64,000 nt of DNA from Eledone cirrhosa (lineage: Eukaryota), in NCBI GenBank assembly GCA_964016885.1, contig OZ024763.1:19778001-19842000 (forward strand), given 5' to 3'. The notes beneath the pieces were generated by a model that was not told where the DNA came from, did not search any database, and saw only the letters and a list, made by a program, of their open reading frames with translations. The translations under genes were made by a program, and so were the position numbers. How positions within the stretch are numbered: position 1 is the first letter of the stretch; every line of letters begins with the position of its first letter. This document shows positions 26,784 through 47,306 of this stretch, one piece after another.

Positions 26784-26833
26784 AGTTTCAGAAGATCCGT
26801 TAAGGGTGAAAGCAGCGATTCTTTGCTTAAACT
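26784..26833 (+). ncRNA. Hammerhead-like motif with CAGAAGA (U4A) core, copy 1
   Basis: Stem I AGTTT/AAACT, CAGAAGA, stem II CC-GTTAAG-GG (one C lost relative to other copies), GAA, stem III AGCA/TGCT, CUU triplet. Confidence 0.7.
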
Positions 26834-28118
26834 TTAATCTGTTATTTTAATAAATATATATACACATATATATATATATACACATACATACATACATATA
26901 TATATATACATATATATATATACATATATATATATACATATATATATTTACATATATATATACATATATATATATACATATATATATACATATATATATA
27001 TATACATATATATATATACATACATATATACATATATATATATATACATATATATACATATATATATATACATATATACATACATATATACATACATATA
27101 TATATACATATATATATACATATATATATACATATATATACATATATATACATATATATACATATATATACATATATATACATATATATACACATATATA
27201 TACATATATATACACATATATATACATATATATACATATATATACATATATATATACATATATATATACATATATATATATACACACATATATATATACA
27301 TATATATATAGCAACATGACCCTCCCAAAGTATAACAACATATATATATACATATACATATATATACATATACATATATATACATATATATAGCGGCAAT
27401 GAATCAGTTTTGCGAGATTTTTTATATGAAATCGTGTGTCGAAACAAATATTGTTATACTTGGTCAGTGACAAGTGGAGAGATGCTGACTAAATAGGACC
27501 AATCCCACCCTTGCAAGCAGGGAAAAGTGGACGTAAAATTATGATGATGATGATGATCTAATATTTAAGTTGCAAATTCTGTAGAAATCTTAGAATTCCA
27601 GAAATCTAGTAACATTGTTCCTCACTGTACTCTTTGTTAATTTAACTTTGCCAGTGGCTCCCCCTGAACACAGCTTGTACTACTCCCACAAGCCACAAAG
27701 GAGAAAAATTAAATTGATAAAGATTTGACTTTAAACAGTTTGTGTACCTAGAAAAACAAATAATAGATCTTCCTCTTTCCTCCTCCTTCTTTCTATTTTC
27801 TTCTCTCTTACTCTCTTTCTTTCTGGTAATAAGTGGGAACTGAAGAAGAAAAAGAGGAGGAGGAAAGAAGGAAAAAGAGAAAGAAAGGAGGATCTATTTT
27901 TTTCTAGATACTCAAACTGTTTACTTACAAAAAAAAACACAGAAAAATCTTTATCTATTTCATTATTGCCCTTTCTTCCACCTGTTACTTGTTTTCCCTG
28001 TCCTAAATTATGATAAGGCTTTTCTGTCTCCCATGCCATGTATCTCCTGTCACCAAATAGATATTTACATTAGCTTAACCCTTTAGCAATCACATTACAA
28101 ATAGATATTTACATTAGC

Positions 28119-28470
28119 TTAACCCTTTAGCAGTCACATTACTCTGTATATACTATTGTATTTTCATGGTAAAGGATTTACCTCACAATTTAACCCTTTA
28201 GCATTCACATTACTCTAGATATAATATTGTATTTTCATGGTAAAGGATTTACCTCACAATTTAACCCTTTAGCATTCACATTACTCGAAATATAAAATTG
28301 TATTTTCATGGTAAAGGATTTACCTCACAATTTAACCCTTTAGCATTCACATTACTCTATATATAATATTGTATTTTCATGGTAAAGGATTTACCTCACA
28401 ATTTAACCCTTTAGCATTCACATTACTCTATATATAATATTGTATTTTCATGGTAAAGGATTTACCTCAC
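28119..28470 (+). repeat. Five tandem 71-bp units derived from a piggyBac-like MITE terminus
   Basis: Units begin TTAACCCTTTAGCA at 28119, 28190, 28261, 28332 and 28403. Confidence 0.92.
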
Positions 28471-28995
28471 ATAATATCGAATCTATGAGATTTGATATTA
28501 TTTATTTTGAAAACAATAACTTAACATCAGTATGAGTGGCTAGTTACAGCTGGTTTGAACTGAAAGTGTGAGAGAATTCTGACCGGTTACAGCCTGTTTA
28601 AATGCTAAAGCCCTTTAGCATTCAAACCAGCCGTATCTGGCCAGAATTTTCTCACATCATTTTGATCAAACTGGCCGTAACCGGCTGCTCATACTTATGT
28701 TAAGTTATTGTTTTCAAAATAAATAATTGTTTCTACTTTAGGCACAAGGCCAACAATTACCCAGTGCATTACTGGTACTTTATTTTATCGACCCCGTAAG
28801 GATGAAAGGCAAAGTCAACCTCGGCGGGATTTGAACTCAGATCGTAAAGGGACGTAACTATGCTGGAAAGCATGGCGTTCGACCCTCTACCGATACTGCC
28901 AATCTACCACCGTTTTCAAAATAAATATCAGAATCTCGTAGATTTGATATTATGTGAGACAAAGTGTTTACCACAATAATACAATAGTAAATATA
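28403..28995. mobile_element. Two piggyBac-like MITEs fused in inverted orientation at 28610/28611
   Basis: Junction AATGCTAAAG|CCCTTTAGCATT; arms are homologous but diverged; the second is interrupted by a SINE. Confidence 0.75.
28726..28911 (-). mobile_element. SINE family A, full length with TSD
   Basis: 16-bp TSD GTTTTCAAAATAAATA at 28710-28725 and 28912-28927. Confidence 0.92.
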
Positions 28996-29862
28996 ATTGT
29001 TTCTACTTTTGGCACATGGCCAGCAAGTATCTCAGTGTATTACTGGTACTTTATTTTATCGACCCCGTAAGGATGAAAGGTAAAGTTAACCTTAGCGGGA
29101 TTTGAACTCAGAATGGAAAGGGCTGTAACTCTATACGTCAAAGCATGGCGTCCGACCCTCGACCGATACTGCCAATTTACATTAAAAAGGTTGACTTTGC
29201 CTTTCATCCTTATGGGGTCGATAAAATAAAGTACCAATAATGCACTGGGTATTTGCTGGCCTTGTGCCTAAAGTAGAAACAATTATATTTACAATAGTAA
29301 ATATAATTGTTTCTACTTTTGGCACAAGGCCAGCAATTATCCCAGTATTGGTACTTTATTTTATTGACTCCGTAGTTGAATAGATAATAAAAAGATAGAT
29401 GATGTATATAAATCAGAACTGTTAAATCCCGCCGAGGTTAACTTTGCCTTTCATCCTTACGGGGTCGATAAAATAAAGTACCAGTAATACACTGGAATAA
29501 TTGCTGGCCTTGTGCGAAAAGTAGAAACAATTATTATTTGGTAGAATCGTTAGGGTGTTGGGTAAAACCCTGAGTAACATTTGTTCCTGCTTTTTACATT
29601 CTGAGTTCAAATCCAGTCGAGGTTAACTTTGCCTTTCATCCTTACGGGGTCGATAAAATAAAGTACCAGTAATACACCTGAGTATTTGCTGGCCTTGTGC
29701 CAAAAGTAGAAACAATTATATTTCTTTTTGTTAATTTTTAAAATCAAAATGAATAAATTTAAAAAACTAGATGATAAAGCTTTCCTTACGGGGTCGATAA
29801 AATAAAGTACCAGTAATGCACTGAGTATTTGCTGGCCTTGTACCAAAAGTAGAAACAATTAT
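28996..29862. mobile_element. Cluster of six whole or partial family A SINEs in both orientations
   Basis: Repeated GGGGTCGATAAAATAAAGTACC / TTGCTGGCCTTGTGC blocks and their reverse complements. Confidence 0.85.
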
Positions 29863-30285
29863 ATTTCTTTTTGTTAATTAAAGTCTGCAGTTTACATCCA
29901 GGCTTCTGTAAGATGAAATAGGTCAGTTAGGTCAACATAGAAGTTGTTGATTGGTTAAAGCTAAGATATCCGGTCAGTCTAAGATATGTTGCCACTCCTG
30001 AGTGGGGCAAGGTATTGTAGGAGTCACAGGAAACACAGACAGAAATGTTGCCGATATAGTTGGCATATATATACATATATATATGTGTGTGTGTGTGAAT
30101 ATATATATGTGTGTGTATATATATGTGTTTGTGTGTGTATATATATATATTAAGTAAGTATGTTTTGAAACAGTGAGCGAGTTTGAAATTAGAAAATATA
30201 TAGCTTTCACCGTATTTCTGACTAAAGGAATTTTAGCTTGATAACGGGGTTTAGAACCCTCAGATAAATGGAAAAAGATGAGTAT

Positions 30286-30356
30286 TGACGTACATGGGAG
30301 TCGAACCCACATCTGTGGTTATCGCGACCACTGTGCTACCATTACACCAACACATC
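30286..30356 (-). tRNA. tRNA-like cloverleaf (Gln-like D arm); pseudo-tRNA or SINE head
   Basis: GATGTGT/GTACGTC acceptor stem (3 G-U pairs), TGGTGTAATGGTAGCAC, anticodon stem GTGGT/ACCAC with loop CGCGATA (no U33), GTGGG-TTCGACT-CCCAT, T5 run 10 nt downstream. Confidence 0.6.
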
Positions 30357-30527
30357 ATGATGTGTTGGTGTAATGGTAGCACAGATGTGGGTTCGACTCC
30401 CATGTACGTCAATACTCATCTTTTTCCATTTATCTGAGGGTTCTAAACCCCGTTATCAAGCTAAAATTCCTTTAGTAAAAAATACGGTGAAAGCTATATA
30501 TTTTCTAATATATATATATATATATAT

Positions 30528-46405: not shown

Positions 46406-46456
<51 letters not shown>

Positions 46457-46559
46457 AGGAATTCATAAGTTTCCTAAAATATGTCTGTATGTTTAATTTT
46501 TCTTAAAAATTATAAACTGGTTCTTCCTGTCAGAGATAATAATCTGATTTGAGAATAAT

Positions 46560-46708
46560 TGTTTCTACTTTAGGCACAAGGCCAGCAATTACCCAGTGCA
46601 TTACTGGTACTTTACTTTATCGACCCCGTAAGGATGAAAGGCAAAGTCAACCTCGGCGGGATTTGAACTCAGATCGTAAAGGGACGTAACTATGCTGGAA
46701 AGCATGGC
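46560..46708 (-). mobile_element. 5'-truncated family A SINE with TSD
   Basis: 17-bp TSD TCTGATTTGAGAATAAT at 46543-46559 and 46709-46725. Confidence 0.92.
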
Positions 46709-46800
46709 TCTGATTTGAGAATAATGCATCTCAAAATATGAACATGGGTGTATATATATATATGTATGTGTGTGTTTGTGTGTGTGTTAAATATATATCG

Positions 46801-47030
46801 ACTAGCAGAAAACCACCCAGCGGGTGGTTTTCTGCTAGTCTATATATCTAAAACAGAGAATGTCTGTCTGTCTGTCAGCTCCCTAAAACTCGAGAACCAC
46901 CCAACCGATTGTTTTCAAACTTTACAAATGTAATACTTATGGTCCCGTGAGTGTTTTGAGCACATTTTCAATGCCCTAGGAGCCGCATTGGGCGATTTAG
47001 CGACCTCTCTCTATAATTCTTAGTCTTTCT
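46801..47030 (+). mobile_element. Helitron-like fragment: palindromic 3' terminus fused to a 5' end
   Basis: ACTAGCAGAAAACCACCC-AGC-GGGTGGTTTTCTGCTAG|TCTATATATCTAAAACAGAGAATGTCTGTCTGTC. Confidence 0.65.
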
Positions 47031-47255
47031 TTTTAGATAGATACATAGATATAACGTTGCGCCCTTATAATATCTGTCTGTATGTCTGGCTGTCTGCATT
47101 ACGACATTATGACATAGCTGTGTGTGTGTGTATATATATAGTGTGTATATATGTATATATATATAGTGTATATATATAGTGTGTATATATGTATATATAT
47201 AGTGTGTAACGTTTTTCGAAATATTTACTTCTGCGTTCACAGATTGATTTTTTTA

Positions 47256-47306
47256 AATTTCAGAAGATCCCGTTAAGGGTGAAAGCAGCGATTCTTTGCT
47301 TAAACT
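47256..47306 (+). ncRNA. CAGAAGA hammerhead-like motif, copy 4
   Basis: Core, stem II and stem III identical to copy 3; stem I weakened; upstream flank diverged. Confidence 0.65.

What the first reader, a model, noticed from the sequence alone, without database searches (positions are those of the whole stretch)
26784..47306. Four-copy hammerhead family with a non-canonical CAGAAGA (U4A) core
Seen: four copies (26784-26833 +, 44980-45030 +, 45187-45237 -, 47256-47306 +) fold into a three-way junction with stem I AGUUU/AAACU, stem II CCC/GGG, GAAA, stem III AGCA/UGCU and a CUU triplet. All four have A in place of U4 of CUGANGA. Copy 4 has a diverged upstream flank but an identical core, so U4A looks like the family consensus rather than decay. 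Known: U4 is almost invariant in hammerheads, so descriptor searches requiring CUGA would miss this motif. Inference: a natural core variant in the pLTR of a Penelope-like element, plausibly the Naiad-type fragment about 700 bp upstream of copy 1.
Basis: partly seen in the sequence, partly recalled or inferred. Interest (0 to 1): 0.85.

Follow-up and report, generated by a model that had tools for sequence, protein, structure and literature searches.

The report
Hammerhead ribozyme with altered core
A jumping-gene family with about 20,000 copies in this genome carries a hammerhead-ribozyme-shaped RNA motif with A in place of the near-invariant U4, unchanged across its subfamilies; it likely sits at the capped start of the transcript and likely cleaves only weakly, which is untested.

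Summary
The four sites are real and all have A at core position 4, but only copy 3 fits the description fully. Genome-wide, 19,559 of 19,765 exact-pattern copies (99.0%) have A4. Most canonical-looking U4 hits are fold-back junction chimeras.

The motif lies in the pLTR of a Hydra-clade Penelope-like element (RWR, DKT, CxCx5C, C-terminal endonuclease, (TA)n targets), not a Naiad. Its layout matches published Hydra hammerheads.

Across six subfamilies, 1 of 55 stem/core positions differs, against 12 of 21 loop and 13 of 34 flank positions. The free position N7 changes while A4 stays.

About 2,060 copies begin exactly at stem I, and 1,226 have an extra G there, a likely cap signature. So the RNA likely starts at the hammerhead and is copied uncleaved. 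A canonical-core family in the same genome behaves the same way, so the genome cannot show whether A4 cleaves. Published mutagenesis predicts low activity.

Verdict: a new core variant of a known PLE hammerhead; activity untested.

The parts
25558..26857 (+). 5'-truncated copy of the Hydra-clade PLE in (TA)n, with a 598-bp internal deletion after 26078 that removes the endonuclease and stop codon
   Evidence: 97-98% identical in two blocks to natural copy L062
25558..26078 (+). ORF fragment: RT thumb, WFNPPY region and CxCx5C linker; 1-nt frameshift near 25885
26768..26776 (+). Distal stem I, 5' arm (copy 1); predicted to pair with 26834-26842
26784..26833 (+). Hammerhead-fold copy 1; A4 at 26790; stem II lacks one C; predicted cut after 26828; 26784 is the inferred transcription start position
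   Evidence: start site inferred
44974..45054 (+). Short 5'-truncated copy containing hammerhead copy 2 (44980-45030); A4 at 44986; GAAA box broken (GACA, 45005-45008)
45078..45458 (-). 5'-truncated copy with the long (about 85 nt) tail, containing hammerhead copy 3 (45237-45187, A4 at 45231) and both distal arms (45253-45245, 45186-45178)
47205..47330 (+). Short copy of an older subfamily (S2) containing hammerhead copy 4 (47256-47306); A4 at 47262; one stem I mismatch

Best explanation
The motif is the hammerhead-fold RNA in the terminal repeat of a Hydra-clade Penelope-like retrotransposon, with A fixed at core position 4 in all subfamilies sampled; it is likely an attenuated ribozyme that would cut slowly, perhaps only when the element's protein binds. 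Shown: element identity, A4 fixation, conservation of stems and core across subfamilies, and pile-up of copy 5' ends with an extra G at the first base of stem I. Inferred: transcription starts at that base, so the capped RNA opens with the hammerhead, 202 nt before the ATG. The protein primes on nicked (TA)n DNA at one of two sites 3' of the motif and copies uncleaved RNA through it to the cap. Untested: residual cleavage would remove the capped 46-nt leader or trim tandem read-through RNA, and A4 would damp this by losing the U-turn contact and by favouring a rival hairpin.
For: Layout matches Hydra hammerheads: 14 of 26 Hydra rows in Craig 2021 File S2 have the same U...U flanks on stem II. 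Across six subfamilies (149 parsed copies), 1 of 55 structured, 12 of 21 loop and 13 of 34 flank positions differ. The 13 unpaired or junction core positions show 0 differences (p = 0.0013 against loops plus flanks). N7 switches A to U in one subfamily. Flank-anchored sample: 28 of 30 loci reach the core and all 28 read A4 (by eye). Distal 9-bp helix has pair probability 0.84-0.99, with one U-A to C-G switch beside it between old subfamilies (only 4 of 5 copies in S5). Extra G: 1,226 of 2,210 non-T copies at -1, against 18 of the first 100 at the next position. The anole PLE hammerhead cleaves only with protein and is dispensable for insertion in vitro (PMC11167929).
Against: In a full mutational scan of a type III hammerhead, all CUGA single mutants had low activity (PMC9901934). 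The hammerhead fold is 4.6 kcal/mol above the predicted minimum, and A4 raises a rival hairpin to P 0.2-0.4 against 0.02 in a natural U4 copy; stem I is equally unlikely in that U4 copy (0.11 vs 0.08). No excess of copies starts at the predicted cut (about 112, or about 60 without stem I fold-backs, against about 85 or fewer at a control position). The core overlaps the inferred start-site region, so DNA-level promoter constraint could explain part of the conservation. Subfamilies were defined by loop and flank letters and found with patterns anchored in the motif, which inflates the contrast. The helices inside the hammerhead show no compensatory change within the lineage. Two compensatory pairs were lost in the young subfamilies' flank.
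Confidence: 0.45

Rival explanations
1. The ribozyme died when A4 was fixed. The sequence is kept because it doubles as core promoter (start site at stem I) and as a folded handle for the element's protein.
For: CUGA mutants are low in activity. Hammerhead mutants do not impair insertion in the anole PLE. The lineage reached about 20,000 young copies with A4. Copies start at the cap, uncleaved. The start site has an initiator-like TCAGTT/TTAGTT sequence (motif recalled, not tested).
Against: The positions kept are exactly the catalytic set, and the one core position that changed is N7, the position hammerheads leave free. Loop II changes length between subfamilies, which shifts downstream spacing from the start site.
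Confidence: 0.4
2. The variant is a fully active ribozyme: the extended stem I with its internal loop docks on loop II and compensates for A4, at least in the 3' copy that has the distal arm.
For: Conserved distal helix and internal loop. Stable stem III allows monomer folding. Perreault 2011 argue that tertiary contacts can offset natural core changes such as U4C.
Against: Every 3' copy was reverse-transcribed through an intact site. No cut-site pile-up. U4A was not rescued by any second mutation in the scan.
Confidence: 0.1
3. The pile-up at stem I marks a 3' splice site (pyrimidine tract plus AG) or a reverse-transcriptase stall, not a capped start.
For: The upstream internal loop is pyrimidine-rich and ends in AG. 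In D. virilis Penelope the intron ends at helix I. In 4 of 21 G junctions the G can be templated by the partner arm (by eye).
Against: Partners upstream of the G are heterogeneous ((TA)n, inverted arms ending at many places), not one exon. Inverted arms often end in the complementary extra C (3 of 5). The same G excess occurs in a second family (82 of first 100), partly inflated there by microhomology.
Confidence: 0.12

Closest known systems
Type I hammerheads of Hydra-clade PLEs (Craig et al. 2021, PMC8557442, File S2; e.g. Hydra-1_aJap, Penelope-4_HM)
   Same: Sense-strand motif near the 3' end and in the pLTR; stem I, core, U, short stem II, U-GAAA, stem III, UH, stem I; (TA)n targeting
   Different: A4 instead of U4 (all 26 Hydra rows read ctga, by construction of the descriptor); G15.2-C16.2 pair and CUU triplet; stem III of 4-5 bp with a 7-nt loop instead of a short palindrome; distal stem I helix
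Natural hammerhead core variants (Perreault et al. 2011, PMC3088659; Cervera and de la Pena 2014, PMC4209133)
   Same: Natural departures from the core exist: U3-A8, A6C, U15.1-A16.1, U10.1-U11.1, viroid U4C
   Different: U4A does not appear in the passages read; here the change is fixed in a family of about 20,000 copies over six subfamilies
Poseidon PLE of Anolis (PAc; Frangieh et al. 2024, PMC11167929)
   Same: Two internal priming sites give short and long (tail) 3' ends; AT-rich targets; unprocessed RNA is the template; no ends seen at the cut site
   Different: Canonical core, shown to cleave with protein; hammerhead overlaps the ORF start, whereas here it is about 150 nt upstream of the ATG; different clade
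Naiad PLEs (Craig et al. 2021)
   Same: (TA)n insertion bias, pLTR and inverted structures
   Different: Naiads have an N-terminal endonuclease and DKA and lack canonical hammerheads; this element has a C-terminal endonuclease and DKT

Membership tests
Hydra-clade PLE | Single ORF with RT and C-terminal GIY-YIG endonuclease | tested here: met
   YRDD at aa 346, YxGLT after the linker in natural copies L063 and L062; read by motif, Pfam gave no hit
Hydra-clade PLE | RWK motif and DKT in place of DKG | tested here: met
   RWR at aa 37, DKT at aa 115; definition
Hydra-clade PLE | CxCx5C linker; CxxC and CxH flanking E and N; no CCHH | tested here: met
   CxCx5C, CDLC and CKH seen; absence of CCHH judged by eye
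Hydra-clade PLE | (TA)n insertion, tandem pLTR, inverted 5'-truncated copies, tail | tested here: met
   L063 tandem with 3,259-bp unit; two 3' ends; fold-backs
Hydra-clade PLE | Placement in the RT phylogeny | not tested
   no named reference proteins were available as stored sequences; no tree built
Naiad PLE | N-terminal endonuclease, CxC domain, DKA | tested here: not met
   endonuclease is C-terminal, motif is DKT
Canonical hammerhead ribozyme | CUGANGA core | tested here: not met
   A4 in 19,559 of 19,765
Canonical hammerhead ribozyme | GAAA box, A15.1-U16.1, H17, C3-G8 | tested here: met
   unchanged in six subfamilies; broken in window copy 2
Canonical hammerhead ribozyme | Three helices around the core | tested here: inconclusive
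   all three can pair and are conserved, but the fold is not the predicted minimum and there is no covariation inside them within the lineage
Canonical hammerhead ribozyme | Self-cleavage after NUH | not testable with these tools
   indirect junction test uninformative, since the canonical control family shows the same pattern

The most novel reading that the evidence does not exclude
A natural U4A hammerhead that still cleaves: it sits at the first base of the capped retrotransposon RNA and, helped by the element's protein or the extended stem I, decaps or trims a tuned fraction of transcripts. Active hammerheads would then hide from every CUGA-based search, and PLE hammerheads would be 5'-cap-proximal switches.
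Probability: 0.3. Interest if true: 0.75.

Novelty: new variant of a known kind. Interest (0 to 1): 0.55.

Why it matters
What hammerheads do in Penelope-like elements is an open question. This lineage is a natural experiment: a core change expected to cripple cleavage has persisted through six subfamilies and about 20,000 recent insertions while the rest of the fold was kept. If it cleaves, the hammerhead core is more tolerant than mutagenesis suggests and CUGA descriptors miss whole families. If it does not, the fold has a non-catalytic job. The junction data also place the likely capped start at stem I in two families, a direct prediction for 5'-end mapping.

Tried and rejected
Rfam: no hammerhead match over 44950-45460; the whole-window scan showed only the best 150 of 1,004 hits, nearly all microsatellite noise. 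DNA search of the genome returned nothing because common words are skipped.

Hidden U4 subfamily: 1,176 CUGA-pattern hits. Of the first 30, 28 are this family and none keeps the stem I strand; 24 have an inverted arm directly upstream, centred on the TTC-N-GAA micro-palindrome; 2 are unrelated. Rejected as an ancestral U4 form.

A putative stem II covariant (L025/L108) is one duplicated locus, not a subfamily. The (TA)n-anchored gap search was swamped by overlapping matches and gave no usable distribution.

Cut-site junction test: uninformative (15 of 30 junctions in both the A4 family and canonical family B, 7 in each explained by stem I fold-back). Thermodynamic folding also fails to give the hammerhead fold for one of two canonical-core families tried, so it cannot decide.

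Expression: no RNA holder listed; the four runs laid were contigs of unknown kind. Family B could not be assigned to a clade: no ORF hit in 1.5 kb upstream of 8 copies. Pfam: 0 families for 3 of 3 proteins. Earlier findings: none. Lunse et al. 2017 could not be read. A search of the Perreault 2011 supplements for four A4 core words found nothing, but it also missed the control word, so it is weak.

Full report
1. Observation. The four sites are present and all read CAGAAGA. Only copy 3 is as described: copy 1 lacks one C of stem II, copy 2 has GACA for GAAA, copy 4 has a stem I mismatch. Rfam gives no hammerhead match over copies 2-3. ViennaRNA does not return the three-way junction as the minimum; it is 4.6 kcal/mol higher for copy 3 with flanks, and z is -0.6 against 300 shuffles.

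2. A4 is the family state. An exact 29-nt pattern with position 4 free matches 19,765 places in the genome, reversed control 0. Non-A accounts for 206, so A4 is 99.0%. Among the first 100 non-A hits, 39 are T, 35 G and 26 C (my count), which looks like decay. A looser CUGA pattern gave 1,176 hits, control 5. Of the first 30 loci, 28 belong to this family and none keeps stem I; 24 are inverted junctions at the TTC-N-GAA micro-palindrome, which put a T at position 4 on one strand. These counts are lower bounds because the patterns are exact.

3. The element. Locus L063 holds a tandem: motif, 202-nt leader, ATG, ORF, 3' UTR, second motif 3,259 bp later. Natural copies show RWR, DKT, YRDD, CxCx5C, a C-terminal YxGLT endonuclease, CxxC and CxH. 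These are the Hydra-clade features of Craig et al. 2021 (PMC8557442; I read passages, the Hydra section and supplement parts), not the Naiad ones. No tree was built. The protein search gave 857 relatives among 8,000 scored; the best 120 are 39-57% identical and mostly about 700 aa, with almost no names; Pfam gave none. None of the fetched copies had a complete unbroken ORF. The window fragment at 25558-26078 is 98% identical to L062 and continues into copy 1 across a 598-bp deletion. Copies end in (TA)n at either of two 3' ends about 85 nt apart, as in the anole PLE (PMC11167929, first half of the text read).

4. It is hammerhead-derived. In Craig's File S2 all 26 Hydra rows read ctga (the descriptor required it), and 14 have the U before stem II and before GAA seen here (my count). 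A descriptor scan of 207 held sequences (0.8 Mb) found 60 distinct CUGA-core motifs of other families. Of 6 CA-core hits outside the strict class, 5 are damaged copies of this family and 1 is unrelated; the reversed control gave 4 hits in all. One canonical family shares the G15.2-C16.2 pair and CUU triplet (L013). So U4 is very likely ancestral and A4 is specific to this lineage. No U4-bearing sister subfamily was found.

5. The fold has been kept. Of 159 copies with intact flanks, 149 parsed into six subfamilies (sizes 65, 42, 7, 15, 15, 5). Commonest letters differ at 1 of 55 structured positions (a C-to-T at a CpG in the 5-copy group), 12 of 21 loop positions and 13 of 34 flank positions (Fisher p 1e-7 and 7e-6). 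The 13 core and junction positions show no difference (p 0.0013). N7 is U in 13 of 15 copies of one subfamily. Caveats: subfamilies were defined by loop and flank letters, most copies were found with motif-anchored patterns, and the upstream flank was compared without indel alignment. As a check, 30 loci were taken by an upstream-flank pattern: 28 reach the core and all read A4. In 30 loci taken by a tail pattern, most are truncated inside the motif and one has U4 with stem I intact (by eye). New feature: stem I continues past a 7-8 nt internal loop into a 9-bp helix (pair probability 0.84-0.99). The pair beyond it is U-A in two old subfamilies (27 of 30) and C-G in a third (4 of 5), but mismatched in the young ones.

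6. Where the RNA starts. 2,210 A4 copies have a non-T base just before stem I; 28 of 30 examined are true junctions and 21 of those have G. The exact G count is 1,226. One base further in there are 794 copies, with G in 18 of the first 100. Read depth in run X1 falls from 2.8 to 1.1 million across the 5' half of the motif. An extra G at full-length 5' junctions is the known mark of a copied cap in L1 (PMC11702581, passage). I infer that the capped transcript starts at the first base of stem I and that uncleaved RNA is the template. A canonical-core family B shows the same: 1,450 copies, 27 of 30 junctions, 22 with G, some by microhomology. The distal arm lies upstream of this start, so only the 3' copy of the motif in a transcript would have it.

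7. Does it cleave? Starts at the predicted cut: 224 hits with 15 of 30 junctions, 7 of them stem I fold-backs. At a control position 4 nt on: 641 hits, 4 of 30 junctions by script, 2 of which are a duplication and a decayed copy. There is no clear excess. Family B gives 55 hits, 15 of 30 junctions, 7 fold-backs. Cut-site to start-site ratios are about 5% (A4) and 2% (B), so the genome record does not separate them. Against activity: all CUGA single mutants were low in a full scan (PMC9901934, passages), and A4 can pair with the U before GAAA in a rival hairpin (P 0.2-0.4 against 0.02 in natural U4 copy L057). For residual activity: natural core variants including viroid U4C and U10.1-U11.1 are tolerated (PMC3088659, passages and one section); metazoan PLE hammerheads are weak in vitro (PMC4209133, first half read); the anole one needs protein; and here the catalytic positions are the ones kept.

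8. Comparison and novelty. It works like a PLE pLTR hammerhead. It is not a member of the canonical CUGANGA class, and cleavage is untested. Searches for a natural U4A or CAGANGA core found no report. The library lacks most subscription papers, including Lunse et al. 2017 on PLE hammerhead variants, and bioRxiv supplements are closed, so absence from print is not established. Searches showed no report of a cap at stem I in PLEs, from listings and the papers read. PMC6765202 and PMC11014351 were seen as passages or term counts only, the retrozyme preprint in its first fifth.

9. Verdict. New variant of a known kind. Hammerhead origin and A4 fixation are near certain. Attenuated activity 0.45, dead but co-opted 0.40, fully active 0.10. 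Interest 0.55.

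Noticed in passing
window 31551-31577 (+), 58536-58623 (inverted pair), 44903-44941 (-, fragment): Family B: canonical-core hammerhead repeat with the same layout, two 3' ends, (TA)n targets and an extra G at stem I; stem I differs between its subfamilies with pairing kept; clade not assigned
   Followed up: partly
window 6057-6074 (+), 18241-18258 (+), 50522-50578 (-): Three further canonical-core hammerhead families in the same 64 kb; the genome is very rich in PLE-type hammerheads
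   Followed up: no
L076-L105, L357-L386: Roughly a thousand short fold-back insertions centred on the core micro-palindrome or on the cap site, likely cDNA self-priming; they create false canonical cores on one strand
   Followed up: partly
L066 132-629 (+), L068 1858-2181 (-): Fragments of other, divergent Hydra-type ORFs; candidates for the nearest U4-bearing sister family
   Followed up: no
window 45054-45078: Copies 2 and 3 lie tail to tail in one (TA)n tract, short end facing long end
   Followed up: no
window 30286-30356 (-): tRNA-like match above the Rfam gathering score (44.3 bits)
   Followed up: no
window about 44185-44900: Tandem array of a roughly 45-50 nt AT-rich unit with alternating inverted halves, just upstream of copy 2
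   Followed up: no
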